Virus record (IMG/VR): IMGVR_UViG_2690316152_000014
Direction: 5' to 3' (one strand)
Length of the DNA: 14,138 nt
DNA from: a virus
Lineage: Duplodnaviria > Heunggongvirae > Uroviricota > Caudoviricetes
In this document: positions 1,130 through 14,138 of the stretch, one piece after another
Layout: every line of letters starts with the position of its first letter
Position numbering within the stretch: the first letter of the stretch is position 1
Program-made: the position numbers and the translations under genes
The notes under the pieces: model-generated
Seen by the model: the letters and a program-made list of their open reading frames with translations, nothing else
Told to the model about the DNA's origin: nothing
Database searches by the model: none

Positions 1130-1166
1130 CCCCTATCGTTATAATACACGGTAGGGGCGTTTTTGT
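1130..1166 (+). terminator. Rho-independent terminator candidate (loop holds a TATAAT hexamer)
   Basis: Stem CCCCTATCG/CGGTAGGGG (one G-U pair), 10-nt loop TTATAATACA, then CGTTTTTGTTT. Confidence 0.5.
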
Positions 1167-1177
1167 TTGGAAATGGT

Positions 1178-2860
1178 ATGAAAACTAAACTGTATTCGTA
1201 TATTCGCTTCTCTTCCATGAAGCAAGCAGATGGTAGTTCATTTGAACGCCAGAAGAGAACAGCGAAAGAGATAGCCGCAAAATATGATCTTGAGCTAGTT
1301 ACTTCCTATCAAGATTTCGGTGTATCTGCATTCAAAGGAGCTAACAGTAAAACAGGTGCATTATCTCGTTTTCTGGATGAGATTGGTCGATCCGTTCCGG
1401 TTGGTAGCTGGCTGGTGGTGGAAAACTTAGACCGTATCTCCCGTCAATCTGTTATTGAAGCTCAAGAGCTATTCCTTTCAATCATCCGCAGGGGAATAAC
1501 AATTGTTACTGGTATGGATGGGAAGGTCTATAGCAAAGAATCGGTTAATGCTAATCCCATCGATTTACTATTGAGTGTAATGTTGTTTGCTCGTGCAAAT
1601 GAGGAAAGTCAGACTAAACGCAATCGCACTAACTCAAGCGCACTACTCAAGGTTAAAGCCCATCAGGAGAATCCACAAAATCCGGCAGTGGCAATCGAGG
1701 AAATTGGTCGCAATATATGGTGGGCTGATACTTCATCGGGTTATGTGCTTCCACATCCGGTGTATTTTCCTGTTATCAAGAAAATCGTTGAATTAAAACA
1801 GAATGGTTATTCTAATGGTCGGGTTCTTGATTATCTGAATGAAAGAATCACCCCGCCTAATTACACAACGAACAAAGATACCCCTAAGAAATGGGCGCGT
1901 TCTATGTTAGCCAGGATGTTCTCTAACCGCGCTTTGCTTGGTATCAAAGAGATAACCATTGAAGGTGTGACATATGAGTTAAAGGATTATTACCCACGAG
2001 TGATGGAAGATGCCGAGTTCTATCAACTCAAGAAGACTATAGGACTGAGGTCGTTTTCTTATCCCACTAAGTCTAGTCCTGTTATTACCCTGTTAAGTGG
2101 TGCTGGCTTGCTTCGATGTGGTCATTGTGGGGCAAGTATGGTTAAGAGAAGCGGAGCATCAAAAGAGAGATTAGCCCAATATCGTTATATGTGCGATGGC
2201 GCAGATAGCAGGAGGACTAATTGTGATCATCCAAATTGGGGCTTTCGTGGTGATCAACTGGATAAGGCTGTATTGCAATTGCTGGCTGATAAAATCTGGA
2301 TTGCTGAGGATAAGGCTAATCCGATCCCAGGTATGCAAGCCCAGATTGAAGACATTTCACGCAAGATTGATAACCTGATTAGTCTTTCTGCAATGACAGG
2401 AGCAACGAAGGAACTAGCCGATCAGATTACTACCCTGAATCATGAGCGTGAGACCATCTATAACCAGATTAAGGTAATAGAAGAGAACATGTATTCAGTT
2501 GATTCTCAAGGCTGGGAGAAGCTAGCACAATTTGATTTAGAGGATGTTTGCAGCGAGGAACGGTTAAAAGTTCGATTGAAGATTAAAGAAGCTGTTAAGT
2601 CTATAAATTGTTACAAGATTGATACCAATTATAATCATTTTTTAATGGAGTACATCGACGGGAAGACACAAAGGATAGTGATCGAGAGGTCACGCCGTAA
2701 CAGGAAAGGGAGAATTTTTGTAGACGTGAAGACTATCAATGATAGGCAGATTCTGGAGAGCAACGGGCTTGTTCTGCATCCATGTTTAGACATGCTGACA
2801 GATAAGAACTGGAAACCGGAGGAAGAAATACCAGGTCCATTACAGGAATTTGGAATTTAA
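1178..2860 (+). CDS. large serine recombinase (probable phage integrase)
   Basis: N-terminal resolvase-type catalytic motifs: YIRFSSMKQ (catalytic Ser), SFERQ, and LVVENLDRISR. C-terminal zinc-ribbon cysteines (LLRCGHCG ... YMCDG ... NCDH) followed by coiled-coil-like sequence. Start set to the ATG at 1178; the track's 1163 is a TTG. Confidence 0.88.
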   Translation: MKTKLYSYIRFSSMKQADGSSFERQKRTAKEIAAKYDLELVTSYQDFGVSAFKGANSKTGALSRFLDEIGRSVPVGSWLVVENLDRISRQSVIEAQELFLSIIRRGITIVTGMDGKVYSKESVNANPIDLLLSVMLFARANEESQTKRNRTNSSALLKVKAHQENPQNPAVAIEEIGRNIWWADTSSGYVLPHPVYFPVIKKIVELKQNGYSNGRVLDYLNERITPPNYTTNKDTPKKWARSMLARMFSNRALLGIKEITIEGVTYELKDYYPRVMEDAEFYQLKKTIGLRSFSYPTKSSPVITLLSGAGLLRCGHCGASMVKRSGASKERLAQYRYMCDGADSRRTNCDHPNWGFRGDQLDKAVLQLLADKIWIAEDKANPIPGMQAQIEDISRKIDNLISLSAMTGATKELADQITTLNHERETIYNQIKVIEENMYSVDSQGWEKLAQFDLEDVCSEERLKVRLKIKEAVKSINCYKIDTNYNHFLMEYIDGKTQRIVIERSRRNRKGRIFVDVKTINDRQILESNGLVLHPCLDMLTDKNWKPEEEIPGPLQEFGI

Positions 2861-2929: not shown

Positions 2930-3925
2930 TTACGCGGCCTCTAAGGGGCTTAAATCAAGTTCTAGGTCTTCCGGTTCCAACTCGGCTAATGGCATTGAGT
3001 GCATCATAGCGAAATCACGTTCTATATCATCTTCGGTTATGTAGTCTTCTGGGTTGATTTCGAAATCAGCATCAAAATATATTGGTTCGGGCGAATTGTT
3101 ATAAATGTACTCCTGTATGAATTTTTTCACATCATCCATTTTGCTGATTGGTAAAGTTTCAGTATAACCACGAGACATTAATTTACGACTAATCCGCTTA
3201 CCTTTGATGTGTTTTTTGATGCCACTTTCTAAATCACCAGCTTTCCAGCCGCAATCAAACGTGTGTGAATATTCAAGGGATAATATTTCATCGGTGTATC
3301 TTTGAGTTTCATACATTCGACGTAGTGGATTTTTGCGCGTAGTTATACCAAATTTTAAAAATTTTTCTCCTACACGAAAAACATAAAAAATAACTGGTCG
3401 ATGTGTATCTTTGTTCATCAAAGCATGTTGTTTCCCGTTTGAAAGAGCAGTTATAGCGCCACGTATAAGAGGACAAGTTAAACTCCCCCGATTACGACTA
3501 CTAAACAAATCGGCTTTGTTGTATATTTTACCATGACAATTACATTTTAGTTTTAGATGGGTTGTTATTCCTCTGTATGGTTCGGCTAGCCCTAAAACAT
3601 CCCAGCCAATCTTATTAAAGAAATTGGTTGAAACTTGTATGTACTCATGTTCTGTATACATGCAAGGTTTCTTATATGTTGGGTGATGGTCTTTTCCTGT
3701 AAACTTACCCATTAAGACACGTTGTAATAAAGGAGTTTTAACTTTATCGCCAACTTTTATATAAACTTTTGTTCGCTGGAATGGCTTATGGATAGGTAGA
3801 ACGAATCCCCCATAAATCCATCCATTAGATTTACATTGGTCAACAACCATTGATTCATATTCAGATGGGCTTTTAGCCGTTGATTTTTTGATGAAAGGAA
3901 TATCTTTAGCAAAAACGGTTTTCAT
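2930..3925 (-). CDS. Cys-rich GIY-YIG-like (T5orf172-like) putative homing endonuclease, paralog A
   Basis: ATG at 3925 with GAGGA RBS. Segment VIFYVFRVGEKFLKFGITT resembles a GIY-x(10)-YIG signature. Cys/His clusters upstream (LKLKCNCHG, LTCPL). Acidic C-terminal tail. Clearly paralogous to the 5053-6090 protein (shared WIYGGFVLP/LIYHGFVMP, KFGIT/KYGIT, GYTET). Confidence 0.55.
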   Translation of the reverse strand: MKTVFAKDIPFIKKSTAKSPSEYESMVVDQCKSNGWIYGGFVLPIHKPFQRTKVYIKVGDKVKTPLLQRVLMGKFTGKDHHPTYKKPCMYTEHEYIQVSTNFFNKIGWDVLGLAEPYRGITTHLKLKCNCHGKIYNKADLFSSRNRGSLTCPLIRGAITALSNGKQHALMNKDTHRPVIFYVFRVGEKFLKFGITTRKNPLRRMYETQRYTDEILSLEYSHTFDCGWKAGDLESGIKKHIKGKRISRKLMSRGYTETLPISKMDDVKKFIQEYIYNNSPEPIYFDADFEINPEDYITEDDIERDFAMMHSMPLAELEPEDLELDLSPLEAA

Positions 3926-3996
3926 AATAGCGAATCCTCATAAATTAAATTCACTATTATTTATTAGTATTTTTCTTGATAATAAAGATTGTTATT

Positions 3997-4668
3997 ATGT
4001 GTGATATTAAAATTAGCTTCATCAATTATAGCCATGTGAAAATTGATTATTCTCCTTCCATTGCAATGGAATTGAGAGATTATTTTAGCTTTGAAGTGGA
4101 AGGAGCCAGATTTAGTCCCAGATACAAATATTCGGGCTGGGATGGTCGTATTAGACTTTTTACCTATGAAAATTTGATGCCTATTGGCTTAGTTCGAATG
4201 GTTAGCGTGTTTTCAAAAAATATGGGTTATAGTGTTTTGATAGACCCTAGACTTTTGGAGCGGGAAAATGTCGATGAAAAGGAAATCGAAAAATGGTGCA
4301 ATGTCCTAGAATTATATTCTGGTGCTAACAGAGTTACCCCGCACTGGTATCAATCAAAAGCAGTCTTTGAAGGTATTCATCATAAACGTAGAATGTTAGT
4401 TCTTCCTACGTCCGCTGGCAAATCTGCTATCGCTTGTATGTTATCTCGTTGGTACTTAGAGAACTACGAAGGCAAAGTGTTGATCATTGTCCCGACGACC
4501 TCGCTTGTTCTCCAGATGCGGGATGATTTTGTTGATTATCGCCAGTTTCCTTATGAAGCTATTCATACTATCATGAGCGGTACTAGTAAGCATGTAGGGG
4601 ATCGCCTGATTGTTGTCAGTACATGGCAATCCGCTTGTAAACAGCCTCGTGAATGGTTTAAACAATAA
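3997..4668 (+). CDS. uvsW: UvsW-like SF2 DNA helicase, N-terminal fragment (223 aa), stops just before motif II; likely a gene remnant
   Basis: Collinear with the T4 UvsW N-terminus as recalled from memory: N-terminal domain, PHWYQ, Walker A LPTSAGKS, YLENYEGKVLIIVPTT, and WQS..KQPREWF. The ORF stops immediately before the expected DECH box. Start set to ATG 3997 (the track's 3976 is TTG). Confidence 0.7.
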   Translation: MCDIKISFINYSHVKIDYSPSIAMELRDYFSFEVEGARFSPRYKYSGWDGRIRLFTYENLMPIGLVRMVSVFSKNMGYSVLIDPRLLERENVDEKEIEKWCNVLELYSGANRVTPHWYQSKAVFEGIHHKRRMLVLPTSAGKSAIACMLSRWYLENYEGKVLIIVPTTSLVLQMRDDFVDYRQFPYEAIHTIMSGTSKHVGDRLIVVSTWQSACKQPREWFKQ

Positions 4669-5052: not shown

Positions 5053-6090
5053 TTACCCCCTATATGTAATTTTATAGTTGTTGGAGTTTTTACAAAAATC
5101 CATTGCCATTTTTCTAATCTGCGCTTCTTTGGTTATGTCACATGTTTCTGTATATCCGTCTGGGATTAGTTCTTTTGGTGCAGCGTGACTTCCTATGTTA
5201 TGTTTTACGGAATATTCTAGGTCATTGGCAACTTTTCCGTCACCGAAAGTTATATACCACAATAACTTGTGAGATAATCCTGACTCTCTTGATTGTTGTG
5301 TGATTCTCTTTTGTGGGTTTAGGTGATTTGTTATTCCATATTTGATATAATCGCCTACTTGCTGGACATAGAAAACACCTGGTTTACTTTTGTTATACCC
5401 ACTCTTAGAACAGCACGGACAACCATCGTTTTCGTAAACCAAACCATACGCAACAATAGTATCTGATATATGGCCTTTTTCACACTTTAGTTTTAGTTTT
5501 GACATAGCCAAAATTGGGGATTTAGGTCGTTTTATTAATTTGAGTCTCTTTTCTTTGCACCCGTCTTCAATTAATCCCAACCATTCGTCGTCTGTGTGCT
5601 TTCTCTTATTAATTCCTCTCTTAATTGACCCACAATGACGGCACCCAGCATCATTGTTTATGATTCTTGTGATTATCGTTTCGTATGTGGTGTTACAACA
5701 AGTGCATTTATATGATGCCTTTGTATCAAGCCCTTTATATTCTTCCAACAAACCAACTAAAACCATCTCTTTACGTTCTAATACATTGCTTGCTTTGGTG
5801 AGAATGGTTTCTTCGTCTCTATTATTTTTCTTTGGTAGTTTTAAAGAATCTCTATAACATTCAATACAAGCACCTTGTTTCTTAAGGGATTTGAATACTA
5901 TCGTTCTTGATGTGTTGTGTTTTTTGCAAGTTACATAAACGTGTGTATATTGACCTTTCCACGGCATGACGAAGCCATGATAAATCAAACCTAATTCACC
6001 ACATCGTTTAATTGCAATTGTTTCATAGTCGTGCGGAGTTTTTCTTTTGAATCCGGTGTAATCGATATATTCAGCAAATAAAACTTCCAT
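5053..6090 (-). CDS. Cys-rich GIY-YIG-like (T5orf172-like) putative homing endonuclease, paralog B
   Basis: Three Cys-rich modules (KRCG..VTCKKH..CIEC; KCTCC..GCRHCG; LKCEKGH..GCPCC), then GVFYVQQVGDYIKYGIT (GIY-YIG-like) and DGYTET. GGGGGA SD upstream of ATG 6090. Confidence 0.55.
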   Translation of the reverse strand: MEVLFAEYIDYTGFKRKTPHDYETIAIKRCGELGLIYHGFVMPWKGQYTHVYVTCKKHNTSRTIVFKSLKKQGACIECYRDSLKLPKKNNRDEETILTKASNVLERKEMVLVGLLEEYKGLDTKASYKCTCCNTTYETIITRIINNDAGCRHCGSIKRGINKRKHTDDEWLGLIEDGCKEKRLKLIKRPKSPILAMSKLKLKCEKGHISDTIVAYGLVYENDGCPCCSKSGYNKSKPGVFYVQQVGDYIKYGITNHLNPQKRITQQSRESGLSHKLLWYITFGDGKVANDLEYSVKHNIGSHAAPKELIPDGYTETCDITKEAQIRKMAMDFCKNSNNYKITYRG

Positions 6091-6142: not shown

Positions 6143-6490
6143 TTAAATGTATTGTAGAAGATACCCGGTAAAGCGGAGTCCCTTGATATAGTAGTTAGTA
6201 GTGCCTAGACATACCGCTCGTGTATCGCCAATACAATTGAAGTTGTAAGGATTAACTACATCAATCTCCTGCCCTACACGAAAGCGATACTTAGGACGTT
6301 TAGCGAGTGTCGCAACACAAAACACTAGCCCGTTACCATCATCGCGGATCATCTGCTTGAATTGTTTATGTTGGACTCTCTTCGCCTCAAAATCATAGGT
6401 CATTGATTCAGGGCTAATGCCATTGATAAAAATACCGGAAAGCTGATCGACCGGATAAGTAGGAAATTCAGTGAAAATATTTTTAGCCAT
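6143..6490 (-). CDS. hypothetical protein (115 aa)
   Basis: ORF with a GGGGG SD 7 nt upstream of ATG 6490. Last gene before the terminator. No motif recognised. Confidence 0.55.
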   Translation of the reverse strand: MAKNIFTEFPTYPVDQLSGIFINGISPESMTYDFEAKRVQHKQFKQMIRDDGNGLVFCVATLAKRPKYRFRVGQEIDVVNPYNFNCIGDTRAVCLGTTNYYIKGLRFTGYLLQYI

Positions 6491-6529
6491 GTTATACCCC
6501 CCATAAGTTTCTATGAGGGTATTTATGGA

Positions 6530-7213
6530 TTAAACGTATTTCATGCGTGATTTAATGTGCTTATTGATATGTTCAAGCATCATTACTTCGTTGCTTTCCC
6601 ACGATCCTAGCGTCGAATAACGAGTAGAAATTTTATCCGACTTAACGGCAACAATTCGCTTACTCTGTTTCTGTGTGCGTTTCTCTAAGCGACGTTTTGC
6701 CACCGCCGATCCATTCTTAGCGCGTTTGGTTCGGGATTTCTTAGGCTTGTACTTCTTCATGATAAAAGTCCCTTCCTGGTTCTCTACCTTGATGAAGTTG
6801 CCGTTTTCGATGTTACGCATCATCTTACCGCCTTTGATGGCCTTAATGTTCCCGTGAGAGTCTAAGACCTTACCGTTAGCGATTGGCACTAGCTTATTGA
6901 TTTTGCCACCATCGAAATAGTGTTTCAGATAGTCGTCCTGACTGCCGATCTTCTTGTCCTTATCCCTTGCTCCCTTGATGAAGATTTGGTGTCTGGTCCC
7001 TGATCGGTTCTTGTAGTTGGTATTGCCTACCGCTTGCTGAGTCCATCGAGTAGGTCTATCAACATTCTTGTTAATCTTCTTCTGGAGTGCTCTGGAAGCA
7101 AAGATCGCCCCTTCCCCTATCGCCTTTTCGAATGTATCGGTTGCCTTATCAGTCCATTGGCGTAACGCTTTCTTAGTCCTTAGAGCGTTTCGTTTATTGG
7201 TACTGATTGACAT
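6530..7213 (-). CDS. hypothetical highly basic protein (227 aa, Lys/Arg-rich)
   Basis: GGGGGG SD. Start is 1 nt after the stop of the 56-aa ORF. Long K/R-rich stretches (KKYKPKKSRTKRAKN, KRRLEKRTQKQSKR) suggest nucleic-acid binding or a virion-internal role. Confidence 0.6.
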   Translation of the reverse strand: MSISTNKRNALRTKKALRQWTDKATDTFEKAIGEGAIFASRALQKKINKNVDRPTRWTQQAVGNTNYKNRSGTRHQIFIKGARDKDKKIGSQDDYLKHYFDGGKINKLVPIANGKVLDSHGNIKAIKGGKMMRNIENGNFIKVENQEGTFIMKKYKPKKSRTKRAKNGSAVAKRRLEKRTQKQSKRIVAVKSDKISTRYSTLGSWESNEVMMLEHINKHIKSRMKYV

Positions 7214-7405: not shown

Positions 7406-7684
7406 TTATTTTTGTTTGAGTATGTCGAGAACTTGGTCAAATTTAGCATCCATCGCAACCACTTTTTTCTCTATGCCGTGTAGTGTTTGTTCCATTTGGT
7501 AAACACGTTCAGCAATCTGAGTATGGTTGTTCTGCATCGTCTCAAACTTCTGGTTTAACAATGCGTCGCTGGATTCCAATTTAGATAACCTATTTTCAGT
7601 TGCTATTTGATTTCGGTGAAGTCTCCAAAGACCACCACAAATTAAGGCGATAACACCGATACCGCCATATATAATTTCAGTCAT
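7406..7684 (-). CDS. membrane-anchored coiled-coil protein (92 aa); function unknown
   Basis: N-terminal helix IIYGGIGVIALICGGLW, then heptad-like sequence rich in Q/E/K/L. GGGGGCG SD 4 nt upstream of ATG 7684. Confidence 0.55.
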   Translation of the reverse strand: MTEIIYGGIGVIALICGGLWRLHRNQIATENRLSKLESSDALLNQKFETMQNNHTQIAERVYQMEQTLHGIEKKVVAMDAKFDQVLDILKQK

Positions 7685-7726
7685 TACGCCCCCGATATTT
7701 TTATAATTTAATGGCAGAATTATTTA

Positions 7727-10700: not shown

Positions 10701-11567
10701 GGTTAAGTTCTCTTTAAAGCTGGCGTTCGGATCACATGCACCGTTTGAATGTAGATCCATCTGGCGTACTTGTTTACGCACTTTCAGGAATGAATCAACG
10801 TTAATGTTTTCAATTGGTACACTAAGACCATATTTTGTATTTGTCAGATAATGGAAAATCTGATCCACGCCGTTAGTGCTTGCCTCAATAGCATTGGTTT
10901 CAAGGTTACGGATTTTAAGGCCGCAAACGTCTACTGTTACCTGGCTATTCGTTTGCAGAATATCAACACCAGCAGCCAGAGATTTGTCATCACGGCGTAA
11001 AACAATACACATGGTCGCAATACCGTTACCCTTGTAAGCATCGGTCCAGTCTGAGCCTAAATGATGTTTAGCCAGTGACAATGCGGTGTTAGGATTCTTA
11101 CCCGTGCGAAACTCAACTTCTAAAACTTTGCGGTATTCGTCTTTAATGTTGCCCTTATCGAGTACACCATCACGGATCGTCATGTTCTTACCGACCAACA
11201 CATTTTTATTATCGATAAAGAGTGCTTTGTAATGGTCGATTTCACCCTCTGCAACAGAAAAGATTTGCACTAACTTATTGTTTTCTTTCTTAGAAATAGC
11301 TTTGTAAACGCAGTTTGTGCCAGTACGGGTAACACCAAAAAGAACGGGTACTACTGTTTTTGGATCGGTTGATGTTCCTAGTGTCACCGCATTATCTGGG
11401 CTTTGTACTTTAGGCGTTTTTGGCGTAGCAGCTACGGAAGCAATCAAGGTCATTGCACCAGCAGCCATACCGATAGCAACTGCGGTCATAACAGAGAATG
11501 TTGCAGCAGCAGCCATCCCAGCAGATGCACCCGCAATAACCGCACCTACTAATACTTCAATTCCCAT
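7788..11567 (-). CDS. lambda J-like central tail fiber / host specificity protein (1259 aa) with an N-terminal extension resembling the C-terminus of tail assembly protein I
   Basis: Size and position after the K-like gene. C-terminal ~200 aa match my recollection of the lambda J receptor-binding region (SGTLNNVTINE, DDHKFDRQIIIP, VIDMPAGKG, VVVMVAKKATSGISI). N-terminal Gly/Ala-rich hydrophobic segment and VVPVLFG motif resemble the gpI C-terminus. ATG at 11567 overlaps the upstream stop (TAATG). Confidence 0.85.
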   Translation of the reverse strand: MGIEVLVGAVIAGASAGMAAAATFSVMTAVAIGMAAGAMTLIASVAATPKTPKVQSPDNAVTLGTSTDPKTVVPVLFGVTRTGTNCVYKAISKKENNKLVQIFSVAEGEIDHYKALFIDNKNVLVGKNMTIRDGVLDKGNIKDEYRKVLEVEFRTGKNPNTALSLAKHHLGSDWTDAYKGNGIATMCIVLRRDDKSLAAGVDILQTNSQVTVDVCGLKIRNLETNAIEASTNGVDQIFHYLTNTKYGLSVPIENINVDSFLKVRKQVRQMDLHSNGACDPNASFKENLTGLMQTFGGVMFESFGRITLKLDAPDIVKHTFNEDNIMMGKVSLKTGGTNGYFNTINAVYQEPSIDYSEQMLRYPADAENDATVRADGRIIAKDVEYRFVKSKDQIDKLASIERNKSRITQVISFMTTDAFTAEVWDVISVTYDELKLNNSLWRITAIDRSIDSGIAGMMTITATEYNSQVYTDLNYAATPDNRPSGLPDSMTVQKPTNFRIKATGETIYGKNVTLTWDAPEDFNRYGFQIDYRVSGSPNWIKLGQTSQQIFNVNALAKDRSYDYRICAFGIIARSDWVELINQNPTVTYELPTPTIRIKNQGSTAGTFEGNDLIIEWDNQQGLDVMINGEANKFSDLFEAYIIKVTNKAGKSIQYRTRDPESWTYTLDMNQFNGLSRQLTVEVSVKGYNNSESAPARLVAINPQHKPMKGFSARGGFNTAFVSWTDDVEHDYAGSIIQYATDNTFSDARAVSTNSVSHTSFDLADGDYYIRGAHYDIFGMDDAVWSEPYFMSMKSSISWEDQDKEALEDLIGLQDRLDETIADAIAQAGENADAKIDAMHKQITTETGQTVQASADTLKSLIVSGDQASSTKIDQVKAELKGDITKEVSASATTLKQAIATSEAASASKIDQVRVEMDGKIAGVNQEADVKIDALKGTINSKYNLAVNADGRVAGIHMSATNDPAQPTKIIFTADKLVVAPQDGAAGVVPFGVEGNKVYMDWSMIRNASIGTAQITDAAITTAKIGNAAINSAKIQDGAITNAKIVNGAIDNAKIGNYIQSSNWNGSTGWHINKNGSATFMNAKIKGNITADSGTLNNVTINESCVIKGMLEATQVRGDFVKTVSKAFPRGAATLGDAGVPDGAVTVTINDDHKFDRQIIIPPIIVAGAEYDIAGTGDNPGRTGYSRMRLEVRKNGTLLKALESGGPIPIAYSSVIDMPAGKGSVTLEFKAWPVSTRRSGSATDVVVMVAKKATSGISIR
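8395..8545 (-). repeat. in-frame tandem short repeats inside the J-like gene, encoding (D/N)(A/G)AI(T/N)x-AKI(G/Q/V) units
   Basis: Protein segment TAQITDAAITTAKIGNAAINSAKIQDGAITNAKIVNGAIDNAKIGN. Matching DNA repeats of GCCGATTTTAGC / CGCGAAGATTCAGGA type were read by eye; coordinates are approximate. Confidence 0.45.
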
Positions 11568-11986
11568 TATTCACCCCCGAATCTATAAACTTGTTCATAG
11601 TCAATGTCTGAAACAGGAACGGTCATCCAGATACCATCTTCGGTAATAAGGCCATAACCGGAATAATGAGGAACTACGGAATAATAATTGCGGTTTCCTA
11701 ACTTGTGAGCGGTAACTAATAAGTCGCCGTCCTGTAAATCATCAGTGACTAATTTGAAATGCTTCTTAATTGGTTGAAGGATGTTTGTATATCCGCTTAA
11801 TTCTTTGCAGACTTTCAAGCCTTCTTCTTTCGTAGAATATTTTTTATAAAGAGAATCATGCAGGTCAGTACCAGCGAGAATATCGATGATCTTACATGCA
11901 ATTAAATTGCAATCATTCTCACCTTGAACGAACTCCTGACCTACTAATGAATTGATATAATCGGTGATAAGCCTAGTTTTTAGCAT
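11567..11986 (-). CDS. tail assembly protein K-like, NlpC/P60-type domain only (139 aa)
   Basis: GENDCNLIACKI resembles the catalytic-Cys motif of NlpC/P60 and of the gpK C-terminal domain; a His lies downstream (PHYSG). No JAMM/MPN HxH motif. Start chosen at ATG 11986 with GGAGG 8 nt upstream; the track's longer ORF (start 12142) overlaps the preceding gene by about 110 nt. Confidence 0.6.
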   Translation of the reverse strand: MLKTRLITDYINSLVGQEFVQGENDCNLIACKIIDILAGTDLHDSLYKKYSTKEEGLKVCKELSGYTNILQPIKKHFKLVTDDLQDGDLLVTAHKLGNRNYYSVVPHYSGYGLITEDGIWMTVPVSDIDYEQVYRFGGE

Positions 11987-12032
11987 GTTGAATACCTCCA
12001 TGCAGTTATTTACTAGGCTTAGGGAGAAGGGA

Positions 12033-12686
12033 TTATTTTTTAGAAGAATGCCACTTGCTTTCTGAGTTCCACTTCCCGGCACGAGAGAAGAATAGATCGT
12101 TCTCGTTTCCAACATAGGATCGGTGGATACCATCGGAAGCATGACTACGGGCGTTTTTATCTAGAACTTCCCAGATACTATTAAGCTGAAATTCTGATTC
12201 GTTTTTACACTCATCATCTTCATGTTCGATGTTAATCCCGATGGAATCGACTACCCCACGGAAAACAGGGTAAGTAGTTTCAACCTTGCCCGTGTTAGGG
12301 TTCAGGAACACCATTTCGATTTTTACATCAGATTTATCGAATTGCTTGTTTCGAATCAGGGTGATGTATTCCTCGCGAACGTTAGAAACGGTTACGTTAA
12401 TCCCGTTGTTGTTGATCTCCTTCTCTTCGGTATTCGATGAGATTTGAAGAAAATCACCCGTTGCGAGATATGTAAAACCGTTGTAGTCCAAATCGAAATA
12501 CCCATCAGTAAGCCGTAGAACGTCCCCTGACGCGGTGACTGCTTCGATAATGTAAAACATCGATCCAGTGGAGAAAAGCTGTGGTAACGTCAATTTAGAC
12601 ACGTTCTGACCTGTCTGGTCGTTGTAGACCTCGATGAAGTCCAGATTAGTGCATAGTTTGCTGAATGATTCCTGAATAGTTGCCAT
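12033..12686 (-). CDS. minor tail protein (gpL position; 217 aa)
   Basis: Synteny between the upstream minor tail protein and the K-like gene. Start ATG 12686 overlaps the upstream stop (TAATG), with GGAG upstream. Unlike lambda gpL there is no C-terminal Cys cluster, so the assignment is positional. Confidence 0.5.
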   Translation of the reverse strand: MATIQESFSKLCTNLDFIEVYNDQTGQNVSKLTLPQLFSTGSMFYIIEAVTASGDVLRLTDGYFDLDYNGFTYLATGDFLQISSNTEEKEINNNGINVTVSNVREEYITLIRNKQFDKSDVKIEMVFLNPNTGKVETTYPVFRGVVDSIGINIEHEDDECKNESEFQLNSIWEVLDKNARSHASDGIHRSYVGNENDLFFSRAGKWNSESKWHSSKK

Positions 12687-13246
12687 TATACATTCTCCAC
12701 TAATTCGAATTTCATCTTGCCAATCTGGGCGATCTTCCAATCGATTTCTTCGGTTTTGAGAAGAAATTCACCCTCAACGTTCTGATACTTGACTACCTCA
12801 CCCGCTAGAACATGCTGACGCAAGTTAGGAAAGAGTTTCATTTCACCACCTGATTTCACGTCTTCGGTGATCGTGTAGATTTTCTTGTGGTTCTCAAACT
12901 GTACAATCGTTCCCGCTTTCAGTGTTCCGGTGAAGTTGGAGAGTCTTACCTTACGCCCACCACGGTCAGTACGAGCAGCAGCCGTAACCATCTGGCGTAC
13001 ATCACCTGTATATTTTGAAAAGTAAGATAGTGGCACACTGAAAGGACGACCAAAAAGGTGACGTGCTACAAATTCTTTTACTTCGTTAATATCCTGAGCC
13101 ATGAAATTAGCTGTAAATTCTGCTTCATAAAAATGAATGCCAGTAAAGCGACGCTGGAACTTACCAGAAATAGATTGCGCCTTGAAGAAAGGCTGTTTTG
13201 ATTTAAGAGTAAAATCTGTGATTTTAATATTCTTGGATTTGAACAT
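12686..13246 (-). CDS. minor/distal tail protein (gpM or Dit position; 186 aa)
   Basis: First gene after the tape-measure-like ORF. Its GGGGG SD lies inside the 3' arm of a 12-bp hairpin. Assignment is positional only. Confidence 0.5.
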   Translation of the reverse strand: MFKSKNIKITDFTLKSKQPFFKAQSISGKFQRRFTGIHFYEAEFTANFMAQDINEVKEFVARHLFGRPFSVPLSYFSKYTGDVRQMVTAAARTDRGGRKVRLSNFTGTLKAGTIVQFENHKKIYTITEDVKSGGEMKLFPNLRQHVLAGEVVKYQNVEGEFLLKTEEIDWKIAQIGKMKFELVENV

Positions 13247-13296
13247 AGAAAAGCCCCCATAGTTTTATGATTATTTATCACTATGGGGGCTTTTAA
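13244..13296 (-). promoter_or_regulatory. intercistronic stem-loop with a 12-bp perfect stem that sequesters the SD of the downstream gene
   Basis: AAGCCCCCATAG (13251-13262) pairs with CTATGGGGGCTT (13281-13292), with an 18-nt loop. Lies between the tape-measure-like stop (13297-13299) and ATG 13246. Confidence 0.55.
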
Positions 13297-14018
13297 TTAC
13301 ATCTTACGACGCTGGACGTCTTCTACATGCTGCGCAACTAATTTAGCATGACGTTTGATAGCATCCATGACCATCTTGTCTGAGCTATTAACGTTGCCGT
13401 TAATGTTCAAAGGCGCATTAACTTCAATCGGCTGAGAGTTGCCGCCTGATTTTTGAGCAGATAAGAAGTCTTTCAAATCACCGTTAGTACGCTGATCAAC
13501 TACTCGTTCACCCTTATCAAGCAACCATGTACCCTCACGCGGGATGTTATCGATACCATCATGCGCCATACCACTAACGTTAGTAGACTTGATGTTAGCA
13601 ATGCTTCCCATGTTCTGAGCAACAGCCAAAGCACTAGCGGCGATCTTCTGTCCTGTGGTTACGTTGGTCGGATCGTTCCATGCATCGGTGGCAGCCGTCC
13701 ACATGTTCACCGTCGCTTGCCCGATAGAGAATGCTTTATGAGCATTAAAAGCCATTTGCATAGCTTTAGTGTTTTCCTGCCCGAAAAGAGTCATTGCAGC
13801 AGAAAAACCACTGTACATATCATCGGCTATTGACTGGCGAGCATCAGCATATTTCTTCTCAATTGCAGCCATCCGTTTTTGATGGTTTTCGTTGAGTTTT
13901 TCTAATGCAGCCATCCGTTTAGCCGGATCATTAATACCATCGATCTTAAGACTTTCGGTCTTATAGTCTTGTTCAGCTTCCGATTTCTCTTTATCGATTG
14001 CATTAAATTTAGCAAACG
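13297..14018 (-). pseudogene. tail tape-measure-like protein, C-terminal fragment; 5' part cut off by an IS insertion
   Basis: The frame stays open upstream of Met 13914 to the IS junction at 14018/14019 and meets a stop only inside the IS (TAG at 14044-14046 on the minus strand). Ala-rich, helical composition and the position upstream of the M/L/K/J-type genes suggest a tape measure protein by synteny. Confidence 0.5.
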
Positions 14019-14138
14019 TGAACCGCCCCGGGAATCCTGGAGACTAAACTCCCTGAGAAAGAGGTAAACAGGATGACTAAAAATACACGTTTTTCCCCCG
14101 AGGTCCGTCAACGGGCAGTTCGTATGGTTCTGGAAAGT
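14019..14138 (+). mobile_element. IS3-family insertion sequence (IS629/IS1203/IS3411-like), left end; continues past the window
   Basis: Starts with TG: TGAACCGCCCCGGGAATCCTGGAGACTAAACTCCCTGAGAAAGAGGTAAACAGG, then an ATG encoding MTKNTRFSPEVRQRAVRMVLES. I recognise this as the IS629-group left inverted repeat and OrfA N-terminus. Confidence 0.8.
14073..14138 (+). CDS. IS3-family transposase OrfA, N-terminal 22 codons (partial)
   Basis: ATG at 14073 preceded by GAGG. Translation MTKNTRFSPEVRQRAVRMVLES is typical of the helix-turn-helix OrfA N-terminus of IS3-family elements. Confidence 0.8.
   Translation, partial: MTKNTRFSPEVRQRAVRMVLES

What the first reader, a model, noticed from the sequence alone, without database searches (positions are those of the whole stretch)
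13244..13296. 12-bp perfect hairpin sequesters the SD of the first minor tail gene
AAGCCCCCATAG and CTATGGGGGCTT flank an 18-nt loop 5 nt after the tape-measure-like stop, and the 3' arm contains the GGGGG SD of the 186-aa gene, whose ATG follows 4 nt later. This suggests translation of that gene depends on ribosomes finishing the upstream gene, or that the structure is a processing or stability element. The IS insertion upstream may therefore also reduce expression of the downstream tail genes.
Basis: seen in the sequence. Interest (0 to 1): 0.45.

Follow-up and report, generated by a model that had tools for sequence, protein, structure and literature searches.

The report
Conserved hairpin masking a ribosome-binding site
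A strongly conserved RNA hairpin between the tape-measure gene and the first tail-tip gene of a defective enterobacterial prophage hides that gene's ribosome-binding site, and its loop carries a phage-T4-late-promoter-like motif, so the gene is probably translated only from a transcript that starts inside the hairpin, not through ribosomes finishing the upstream gene.

Summary
The hairpin is real. On the minus strand a 15-bp stem (13294-13280 / 13263-13249) encloses a 16-nt loop. It lies between the tape-measure stop (13299-13297) and the ATG (13246) of a pb9-like distal tail protein gene. Predicted energy is -32 kcal/mol (z = -6.9). Relatives keep it with six doubly compensated pairs, and their G·U pairs fit only the sense RNA.

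The 3' arm's GGGGG matches this phage's usual ribosome-binding motif, so masking is supported. The proposed release by terminating ribosomes is not. The site stays paired unless at least 9 nt past the stop are held open, and relatives with no co-oriented upstream gene keep the masking.

The invariant loop sequence GATAAATA resembles the T4 late promoter TATAAATA. Its core TAAATA is the commonest hexamer in this phage family's intergenic regions and often follows terminators. Across lineages down to 34% protein identity, the motif sits between anti-SD and SD wherever the site is masked. It is absent where the site is free.

Best reading (inferred, about 0.5): a terminator-like hairpin silences read-through RNA, while an internal promoter yields translatable mRNA, as at T4 genes e, soc and I-TevI. 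No gp55-like factor was found.

The parts
13297..14018 (-). C-terminal part of the tail tape-measure gene, cut upstream by an IS. Stop codon TAA at 13299-13297.
   Evidence: phrog_1506 tape measure protein, 1.4e-35. Intact homologues of 778-836 aa occur in relatives. The IS junction was read.
14019..14138 (+). Left end of an IS3-family element (IS1203/IS629-like) inserted in the tape-measure gene.
   Evidence: Megablast places it in 3594 E. coli genomes under features annotated as IS3 family / IS1203 transposase.
13280..13294 (-). 5' arm of the hairpin, AAAAGCCCCCAUAGU. The C-run is the anti-SD.
   Evidence: RNAfold MFE and centroid. Covariation. RNAalifold.
13264..13279 (-). 16-nt loop, GAUAAAUAAUCAUAAA.
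   Evidence: The 5' half is invariant in all relatives, and the 3' half varies.
13272..13279 (-). GATAAATA, a T4-late-promoter-like motif (7 of 8 matches to TATAAATA; core TAAATA 13277-13272).
   Evidence: Invariant columns in alignment A1. TAAATA is the top intergenic hexamer of the prophage (17 of 31 gene-upstream intergenic regions). All 6 minus-strand copies in the window are intergenic.
13266..13266 (-). Transcription start predicted if T4 spacing applies (box at -13..-6). This is an inference, not mapped.
   Evidence: Spacing taken from PMC2988020. RNA starting here folds at only -3.4 kcal/mol and leaves the SD unpaired in the MFE structure.
13249..13263 (-). 3' arm of the hairpin, ACUAUGGGGGCUUUU.
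13254..13258 (-). GGGGG, the Shine-Dalgarno sequence of the distal tail protein gene, 7 nt before the ATG and fully paired.
   Evidence: The phage's SD consensus GGGG(G)T is seen at unstructured junctions. It becomes GGAGG in L002, with a compensating change in the 5' arm. P(unpaired) = 0.0.
13247..13252 (-). U-tract UUUUCU directly after the stem. It is both a terminator-like tail and the SD-ATG spacer.
   Evidence: Tail score 3.84 and d-score +3.4; Salmonella relatives score +12.8 and +17.5.
12686..13246 (-). Distal tail protein (Dit, T5 pb9-like) gene, 186 aa.
   Evidence: phrog_1302, 1.9e-16; PF21430, 0.0023. The N-terminus is conserved in 18 homologues.
6497..6525 (-). Second SD-masking hairpin of the same design. 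TAAATA (6525-6520) abuts the anti-SD arm CCCUCAUAG (6519-6511), which pairs with CUUAUGGGG (6506-6498, within the G-run 6502-6497). The ATG is at 6490. There is no U-tract.
   Evidence: It is conserved in E. coli TO6 and Salmonella, with U·G becoming U-A. d-score -74, so it is not a terminator.
12007..12012 (-). TAAATA motif 20 nt upstream of the DUF6950 gene's probable ATG (11986).
   Evidence: CTAGTAAATAA is invariant in all E. coli and Salmonella relatives.
7721..7726 (-). TAAATA motif 9 nt after the terminator that follows the J-like tail tip gene.

Best explanation
The element is a conserved mRNA hairpin with two shown properties and one inferred.

Shown:
- In any transcript that runs from the tape-measure gene into the distal tail protein (Dit) gene, a C-run anti-SD pairs with the Dit Shine-Dalgarno GGGGG in a stem of about -25 kcal/mol. 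This should block 30S binding.
- In the E. coli/Salmonella clade the same stem is followed by a U-tract and scores as a Rho-independent terminator, though only marginally so (d = +3.4) in the window itself. It can therefore also end or attenuate transcripts of the tube, chaperone and tape-measure genes and protect their 3' ends.

Inferred: the invariant GATAAATA in the loop is a T4-late-type promoter box with no -35 element. RNA polymerase starting about 6 nt downstream (near A13266) would make an mRNA that holds the 3' arm, SD and ATG but not the 5' arm. That mRNA would neither self-terminate nor mask its ribosome site.

Dit and the downstream tail-tip genes would then be translated only from their own promoter, while read-through RNA stays silent. 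This is the logic established for T4 genes e, soc, 49 and I-TevI.
For: Structure:
- Hairpin MFE and z-score.
- 6 of 14 pairs doubly compensated, 99.4% of cells paired, 0 of 500 shuffles as good.
- Three independent G·U pairs (L012, L023, L024) that would be A·C mismatches on the other strand, so selection acts on the sense RNA.

SD:
- Phage SD consensus GGGG(G)T.
- P(unpaired) 0.0 in read-through RNA against 0.54 in RNA starting at the predicted +1.

Motif:
- TGATAAATA is invariant while the rest of the loop and the stem vary.
- In intact E. coli TO6 late genes, 8 of 9 sense-strand TAAATA copies fall in 706 nt of intergenic DNA out of 16,950 nt. Shuffles give a mean of 0.89, and 0 of 5000 reach the observed count.
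- It is the most widespread hexamer upstream of genes, more so than SD hexamers (17 of 31 regions, against 2 of 21 in the host flank).
- All 6 minus-strand copies in the window are intergenic.
- Intergenic share in relatives: 9 of 10 in L030, 9 of 10 in L031, and 8 of 15 in L032 (which cover 8 of its 9 long intergenic regions).
- No -35 element is conserved.
- The motif occurs in both orientations in an 85-nt divergent intergenic region, 24-29 nt before each ATG.
- The layout terminator, then 3-20 nt, then TAAATA, then SD-ATG recurs.
- The homologous structural module in the phage DCP80 record carries perfect TATAAATA boxes after terminators.

Comparative rule at the Dit start:
- The motif lies between anti-SD and SD wherever the SD is masked. 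This holds in the E. coli/Salmonella clade, L016-20, L068, L069-73 and L074-76 (34-35% identity, different stems, two motifs in the loop).
- The motif is absent where the SD is free (L014/L032/L065/L066 and DCP80).

T4 links and precedent:
- Relatives carry T4-type genes (UvsY, UvsW, endonuclease VII, Inh-like).
- T4 precedent: PMC3014915. Promoter definition: PMC2988020.
Against: - No transcription start has been mapped. The promoter role is inferred from sequence statistics and analogy only.
- No gp55 or gp33 homologue was found by tblastn in the window, in the held part of the TO6 prophage (L001 plus L025:1-16100; its recombinase end was not fetched), in L016/L019, in L030-32, or in 785 kb of 44 viral contigs. 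No sigma-like hit came from PHROGs or Pfam on the early-region proteins. What would read the motif is unknown.
- The box here is GATAAATA, and other sites are CTAAATA or GTAAATA. T4 adheres tightly to TATAAATA.
- Some TAAATA sites are followed by GC-rich anti-SD runs, whereas T4 late promoters are AT-rich downstream of the box.
- The predicted gain in SD accessibility from a motif-proximal start is not universal across intergenic regions.
- A site-specific RNA cut in the loop would satisfy the same 'motif between anti-SD and SD' rule.
Confidence: 0.5

Rival explanations
1. Plain intrinsic terminator, attenuator or 3'-end stabiliser between the tape-measure gene and the tail-tip genes. The SD overlap would be incidental, or would merely keep Dit translation low. 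The TAAATA in the loop would have an unrelated role or none.
For: There is a GC-rich stem, an A-tract before it and a U-tract after it. The d-score is +3.4 in the window and +12.8 and +17.5 in Salmonella relatives. Canonical terminators sit after the capsid, terminase, tail-tube and J-like genes of the same phage, so internal terminators are part of its design.
Against: The U-tract is not kept in distant lineages that do keep the SD masking and the motif (L068-L076). A second hairpin of the same design has no U-tract at all (d = -74). A 16-nt loop is atypical for terminators. The invariant loop motif and the motif/masking correlation go unexplained. Dit is needed in amounts similar to the tape-measure protein (established siphovirus tail stoichiometry, from my own knowledge), so near-total SD occlusion without a relief mechanism is hard to reconcile.
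Confidence: 0.2
2. Translational coupling. Ribosomes terminating at the tape-measure stop would melt the base of the hairpin, or re-initiate across it, and this would be the only way the Dit SD and AUG become available.
For: If at least 9-11 nt past the stop are held open, the SD becomes 50-80% unpaired. In L074-L076 the anti-SD begins 0-2 nt after the stop. RNAalifold adds a weak, invariant outer helix pairing GAUGUA at the stop with UAUGUU at the start.
Against: With 0-7 nt held open the SD stays at most 1% unpaired. In L013, L023 and L024 the anti-SD lies 16-19 nt after the stop. L016-20 and L068-73 mask the SD although the upstream gene is divergent. This model does not explain the invariant loop motif.
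Confidence: 0.12
3. RNA processing site. An endoribonuclease (RNase E-type cutting in the AU-rich loop, RNase III on the roughly 20-bp interrupted helix, or a phage enzyme) would cut between anti-SD and SD. That would leave a 3' hairpin stub on the upstream mRNA and free the Dit SD.
For: The motif is AU-rich and single-stranded in the loop, or lies next to hairpins elsewhere. A cut would satisfy the same ordering rule of anti-SD, motif, SD. T7 and lambda offer precedents for processing-activated translation (my own knowledge).
Against: A strictly invariant hexamer is more specific than the degenerate RNase E preference. The motif occurs in short divergent intergenic regions where promoters must lie. 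The two halves of a 15-bp, -25 kcal/mol stem would not readily separate after a loop cut. The inner 4-5 bp helix needed to reach RNase III length is not conserved (L006-8, L024). The motif's likeness to TATAAATA, and the perfect boxes in the DCP80 module, favour a promoter.
Confidence: 0.12

Closest known systems
T4 genes e (lysozyme), soc, 49 and I-TevI: an RBS-sequestering hairpin with a late promoter inside or next to its 5' strand (McPheeters et al. 1986, reviewed in PMC3014915)
   Same: The SD is paired in a stable helix in transcripts coming from upstream. A TATAAATA-type box is placed so that transcripts starting there lack the 5' strand. Two tandem boxes occur in some relatives (L013, L074-76), as at T4 gene e.
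   Different: Here the box sits in the hairpin loop, not in the 5' strand (the 5'-strand version occurs in relatives L016-20 and L069-73). The hairpin doubles as a terminator-like structure. The setting is an integrated siphovirus-type element with no detectable gp55. The box is GATAAATA or nTAAATA, not strict TATAAATA. Nothing has been tested experimentally.
Rho-independent (intrinsic) transcription terminators inside phage late operons
   Same: GC-rich stem with a C-rich 5' arm and G-rich 3' arm, flanking A- and U-tracts, an intergenic position after a structural gene, and a positive d-score.
   Different: The loop is 16 nt. The 3' arm is the next gene's SD. The U-tract is the SD-ATG spacer. 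The loop sequence is conserved. Distant relatives keep the stem but not the U-tract.
Translational coupling by SD occlusion (for example the RNA phage MS2 coat-replicase pair and E. coli ribosomal protein operons)
   Same: The downstream SD is hidden in a helix at a gene junction.
   Different: In the classical cases the complementary strand lies inside the upstream coding region, so elongating ribosomes open it. Here both strands lie beyond the stop codon.
T7 RNase III processing sites and lambda N-leader processing
   Same: An intergenic, interrupted hairpin between late genes, which could leave a protective 3' stem and activate downstream translation.
   Different: The upper helix is 0-5 bp and not conserved. 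There is no evidence of cleavage.

Membership tests
T4-type SD-masking hairpin with internal late promoter (genes e, soc, 49, I-TevI) | The SD and/or AUG is paired in a stable helix in read-through RNA. | tested here: met
   P(unpaired) of GGGGG is 0.0 and the stem is -24.7 kcal/mol. Covariation is shown.
T4-type SD-masking hairpin with internal late promoter (genes e, soc, 49, I-TevI) | A late promoter is positioned so that its transcripts lack the 5' strand of the helix. | tested here: inconclusive
   GATAAATA sits in the loop. With T4 spacing the start would be A13266, 3' of the whole 5' arm. Promoter activity itself has not been shown.
T4-type SD-masking hairpin with internal late promoter (genes e, soc, 49, I-TevI) | Translation is repressed from long transcripts and active from short ones. 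| not testable with these tools
   This needs reporter fusions or toeprinting.
T4 late promoter (gp55-dependent) | An 8-bp TATAAATA box. | tested here: inconclusive
   This site matches 7 of 8 positions, with G at the first. Of 19 TO6 sites, 5 are perfect TATAAATA and 12 contain ATAAATA. T4 allows mostly A at -13.
T4 late promoter (gp55-dependent) | No conserved -35 element, and an AT-rich segment downstream of the box. | tested here: met
   No informative position outside the hexamer in 19 aligned sites. Downstream of this box is ATCATAAAA. Some other sites are followed by GC-rich runs.
T4 late promoter (gp55-dependent) | The gp55 recognition subunit (with gp33 and gp45) is available from the same genome. 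| tested here: not met
   tblastn with DCP80 gp55 and gp33 found nothing in the window, the TO6 prophage, L016/L019, L030-32 or 44 viral contigs. There were no sigma-like PHROG or Pfam hits. A helper phage or an unrecognised factor would be required.
Rho-independent terminator | A GC-rich stem immediately followed by a U-tract. | tested here: met
   An 11-bp core with 6 G-C pairs, then UUUUCU. Tail score 3.84 and d-score +3.4 (the formula was recalled from d'Aubenton Carafa et al. 1990).
Rho-independent terminator | A short loop, typically 3-10 nt. | tested here: not met
   The loop is 16 nt. For that reason the consensus scan (loop 3-8) did not report it.
Rho-independent terminator | Transcripts end in the U-tract. 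| not testable with these tools
   This needs Term-seq or in vitro termination assays.
Translational coupling by ribosome-mediated unmasking | The masking strand lies within reach of the upstream ribosome. | tested here: inconclusive
   The C-run lies 8-12 nt after the stop. The SD opens only if at least 9-11 nt are held open. In relatives the distance varies from 0 to 19 nt.
Translational coupling by ribosome-mediated unmasking | Masking is always accompanied by a co-oriented upstream gene. | tested here: not met
   L016-20 and L068-73 mask the Dit SD behind a divergent upstream gene.
Known Rfam RNA families | A match at the gathering threshold. | tested here: not met
   No matches in the whole window.

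The most novel reading that the evidence does not exclude
The 35-38 kb integrated elements that carry this hairpin have a large serine recombinase, a full siphovirus-type virion module and lysis genes. They also carry T4-type accessory genes: UvsW, UvsY, endonuclease VII, an Inh-like prohead-protease inhibitor and homing endonucleases. They have no detectable sigma factor or gp55.

They may be satellites or hitch-hikers of T4-like phages. Their genes would be fired by the helper's gp55/gp33/clamp machinery at TAAATA boxes. SD-masking hairpins such as this one would keep every gene untranslatable from host-driven or read-through transcripts until that machinery arrives. The chimeric 'phage DCP80' record (T4-like genes plus a homologous sipho module with perfect TATAAATA boxes) could be a co-assembly of such a pair.
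Probability: 0.15. Interest if true: 0.85.

Novelty: new member of a known kind. Interest (0 to 1): 0.5.

Why it matters
If the model holds, it shows that the T4 strategy is not confined to T-even phages. That strategy is to silence read-through RNA by hiding the ribosome site, and to translate only RNA born at a late promoter inside the hairpin. Here it would be used systematically in a widespread family of enterobacterial prophage-like elements, found in 56 of 5426 complete E. coli genomes and also in Salmonella and Enterobacter.

In practical terms, gene-by-gene promoters with masked read-through would mean that polarity arguments, such as 'the IS upstream lowers tail-gene expression', do not apply.

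It also poses a sharp, testable question: which polymerase factor reads a T4-late-like box in an element that encodes none? The answer might reveal helper dependence on T4-like phages.

Tried and rejected
- Rfam at gathering thresholds found nothing in the window.
- The consensus terminator scan missed the hairpin because of its loop-size limit, so I scored it by hand.
- A sigma-70 promoter in the loop was rejected. No -35 element is conserved, and TAAATA lacks the -7 T. The TG of an 'extended -10' is not conserved (TCATAAATA in L006-8, CCCTAAATA in L074).
- A DNA-level cruciform or antisense RNA was rejected because three G·U pairs would be A·C mismatches on the other strand.
- The conserved inner loop helix (UGAU/AUCA) was rejected as the reason for loop conservation. 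It is broken in L006-8 and L024 while the motif stays.
- A repeated mobile element (REP- or MITE-like) is unlikely. Other hairpins in the window have unrelated sequences.
- The search for gp55, gp33 or RpbA homologues and sigma-like domains was negative.
- Literature searches for a described T4-dependent satellite or a ycdX-integrated prophage of this kind found nothing relevant.

Full report
**1. The observation**

On the minus strand the window reads TAA (13299-13297), TT, AAAAGCCCCCATAGT, GATAAATAATCATAAA, ACTATGGGGGCTTTT, CT, ATG (13246). RNAfold gives this stem as MFE and centroid: -32.4 kcal/mol for a 91-nt stretch, z = -6.87, and 0 of 200 shuffles fold as well. The opposite strand folds less well (z = -4.77). 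Rfam has no match.

**2. The surroundings**

The upstream ORF is the C-terminus of a tape-measure protein (phrog_1506). The 186-aa gene is a distal tail protein (phrog_1302, with a weak T5 pb9 B-domain hit). Downstream come a baseplate-hub-like gene, a DUF6950 gene and a 1259-aa J-like tip protein.

The tape-measure gene is cut at 14018/14019 by an IS3-family (IS1203/IS629-like) element. The window is therefore a defective copy of a low-GC prophage-like element.

Intact relatives at 90-95% identity occur in 56 of 5426 complete E. coli genomes. In strain TO6 the element's left end abuts a truncated ycdX gene.

**3. Conservation of the hairpin**

All E. coli relatives keep the hairpin. L002 has a C-G to U-A double change that turns GGGGG into GGAGG. 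L012 has a G·U pair.

Salmonella and other relatives (Dit identity 67-82%) have the same architecture with a different stem sequence. On a 12-sequence alignment, 99.4% of cells are paired and 6 of 14 pairs changed on both sides. No shuffle out of 500, and no slid register, comes close. RNAalifold recovers the stem independently.

Three independent G·U pairs would be A·C mismatches on the complementary strand. Selection therefore acts on the sense RNA, not on DNA or an antisense transcript.

**4. Is the G-run the ribosome-binding site?**

At unstructured junctions of the same phage the SD is GGGG(G)T, 5-7 nt before the ATG. The G-run in the 3' arm, 7-9 nt before the conserved ATG, is the only candidate here. 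It is fully paired, with P(unpaired) = 0.0. SD sequestration is therefore supported.

**5. Is the mask released by terminating ribosomes?**

The evidence is mostly against this.
- With the stop codon plus 0-7 nt held single-stranded, the SD stays at most 1% unpaired. It opens only at 9-11 nt or more.
- In relatives the anti-SD lies anywhere from 0 to 19 nt after the stop.
- In several lineages (L016-20, L068-73) the Dit gene follows a divergently oriented gene, yet still has an SD-masking hairpin.

Coupling may contribute in some lineages, such as L074-76, but it cannot be the conserved mechanism.

**6. Is it a terminator?**

In the E. coli/Salmonella clade the stem has a U-tract after it and an A-tract before it. 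It passes the d'Aubenton Carafa score: +3.4 in the window, and +12.8 and +17.5 in Salmonella. The same phage has canonical terminators after its capsid, terminase, tail-tube and J-like genes.

However, the loop is 16 nt. Distant lineages that keep the masking lose the U-tract. A second hairpin of the same design (window 6525-6497) has none. Terminator capacity looks like an added feature of this clade, not the conserved core.

**7. The loop motif**

The 5' half of the loop, TGATAAATA, is invariant, while the 3' half and the stem vary. Its core TAAATA is a striking intergenic motif.
- In TO6 late genes, 8 of 9 sense-strand copies lie in 706 nt of intergenic DNA out of 16,950 nt. Shuffles give a mean of 0.89, and 0 of 5000 reach the observed count.
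- Over the whole prophage it is the most widespread hexamer upstream of genes: 17 of 31 regions, ahead of SD hexamers, against 2 of 21 in the host flank.
- All six minus-strand copies in the window are intergenic.
- The same holds in diverged relatives: 9 of 10 copies in L030, 9 of 10 in L031, and 8 of the 9 long intergenic regions in L032.
- No -35 element accompanies it.
- It appears in both orientations in an 85-nt divergent region, 24-29 nt before each ATG, and as perfect TATAAATA upstream of several genes.
- The layout 'terminator, then 3-20 nt, then TAAATA, then SD-ATG' recurs.

T4 late promoters are exactly such an isolated 8-bp TATAAATA box at -13..-6 without a -35 element (PMC2988020).

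**8. The link to T4**

The closest isolated phage by Dit protein (42% identity) is the record 'Escherichia phage DCP80'. That record is a scrambled T4-like assembly, with rIIA three times and primase and spackle twice. It also holds a structural module syntenic with this prophage, in which perfect TATAAATA boxes follow UUCG-loop terminators.

Relatives of the prophage carry UvsY, UvsW, endonuclease VII and an Inh-like protein. The window has a UvsW-like fragment and homing-endonuclease-like genes.

**9. The comparative rule**

At the Dit start, every lineage with a masked SD has the motif between anti-SD and SD.
- In the loop: the E. coli/Salmonella clade and L068.
- In the loop, with two copies: L074-76, at 34-35% protein identity and with unrelated stems.
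- In the 3' part of the 5' arm: L016-20 and L069-73.

Lineages without the motif at this junction have a free SD (L014/L032/L065/L066 and DCP80).

With T4 spacing, the start would be A13266. RNA beginning there folds at only -3.4 kcal/mol and leaves the SD unpaired in the MFE structure (mean P(unpaired) 0.54).

This is the arrangement documented for T4 genes e, soc, 49 and I-TevI. There, read-through transcripts hide the RBS, and transcripts from a late promoter within the structure are translated (PMC3014915).

**10. Weaknesses**

- No start site has been mapped.
- No gp55, gp33 or sigma-like gene was found in the held sequence of the element or in 785 kb of related viral contigs.
- The box deviates from strict TATAAATA.
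- Some sites are followed by GC-rich runs.
- The computed gain in accessibility is not universal.
- A sequence-specific RNA cut in the loop would fit the ordering rule too.

**11. Verdict**

The ribosome-dependent unmasking idea is largely not supported.

The best explanation (confidence about 0.5) is a dual-purpose mRNA hairpin. It is terminator-like and silences read-through RNA, and it has a T4-late-type promoter box in its loop. This makes it a new member of the T4 gene-e type of control, found in an unexpected host element. The rivals are a plain terminator (0.2), coupling (0.12) and a processing site (0.12).

Noticed in passing
window minus strand 13277, 12012, 7726, 6525, 6136, 3963 (first T of each TAAATA): TAAATA occurs six times on the gene-sense strand, and every copy is intergenic, 20-40 nt upstream of a start codon. 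It looks like the phage's general promoter-like box (T4 late TATAAATA-like, with no -35 element).
   Followed up: yes
window 6488-6532 (-): A second SD-masking hairpin lies between the 227-aa and 115-aa genes. TAAATA abuts the anti-SD arm CCCUCAUAG, which pairs with CUUAUGGGG(GG). It has no U-tract. It is conserved in E. coli TO6 and Salmonella (L030, L031), with U·G becoming U-A.
   Followed up: partly
L025 complement 1239-1300 and 7483-7530; L030 470-548; L031 454-523: Further junctions (capsid to the next gene, and the terminase start) have a C/U-rich anti-SD directly 3' of TAAATA that pairs with the downstream SD. Examples are TAAATACTCCTAAACAGGAGG and TAAATACCTTCAT..ATGAGGG. This suggests a family-wide design rule.
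   Followed up: partly
window 14019-14138: An IS3-family (IS1203/IS629-like) end is inserted in the tape-measure gene, so this prophage copy is defective. In E. coli L73 (L011) a different IS3 insertion cuts the same gene.
   Followed up: partly
window 5053-6090 (-) and 2930-3925 (-): There are two paralogous endonuclease-like genes (phrog_681, CapR homology domain). The first is absent from strain TO6 at this position. It sits as a cassette with its own TAAATA box and terminator between the 115-aa gene and the endolysin, as a homing endonuclease would.
   Followed up: partly
window 3976-4668 (+); L031 17682-19618; L032 17630-18094; L001 17571-18026: The element family carries T4-type accessory genes: a UvsW-like helicase (only an N-terminal 230-aa ORF in the window), UvsY, endonuclease VII and an Inh-like 'inhibitor of prohead protease'. 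No replication genes or sigma or gp55 genes were recognised in the parts scanned, which raises the possibility of dependence on T4-like phages.
   Followed up: partly
PQ671644.1 (L026-L029): The GenBank record 'Escherichia phage DCP80' (Straboviridae) looks like a scrambled or chimeric assembly. It has rIIA three times, and primase, spackle, Ndd and exonuclease subunits twice. It also contains a siphovirus-type structural module homologous to this prophage, with an unannotated Dit gene at 16905-17462.
   Followed up: partly
window 11567-12142 (-) and 12033-12740 (-): The mechanically listed ORFs over-extend. From relatives, SD positions and the TAAATA box, the DUF6950 gene most likely starts at ATG 11986. 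The baseplate-hub gene most likely starts at the ATG that overlaps the Dit stop (12686).
   Followed up: partly
window 13301-13306 with 13242-13247 (-): RNAalifold predicts a weak outer helix pairing GAUGUA (the last tape-measure codon and the start of the stop codon) with UAUGUU (the Dit start codon). It is invariant in all relatives, so there is no covariation evidence either way.
   Followed up: no
window 1163-2860 (+), 1129-1158: A large serine recombinase gene is preceded by a terminator-like hairpin. In E. coli TO6 the opposite end of the homologous element abuts a truncated ycdX gene, which suggests ycdX as the integration site.
   Followed up: no
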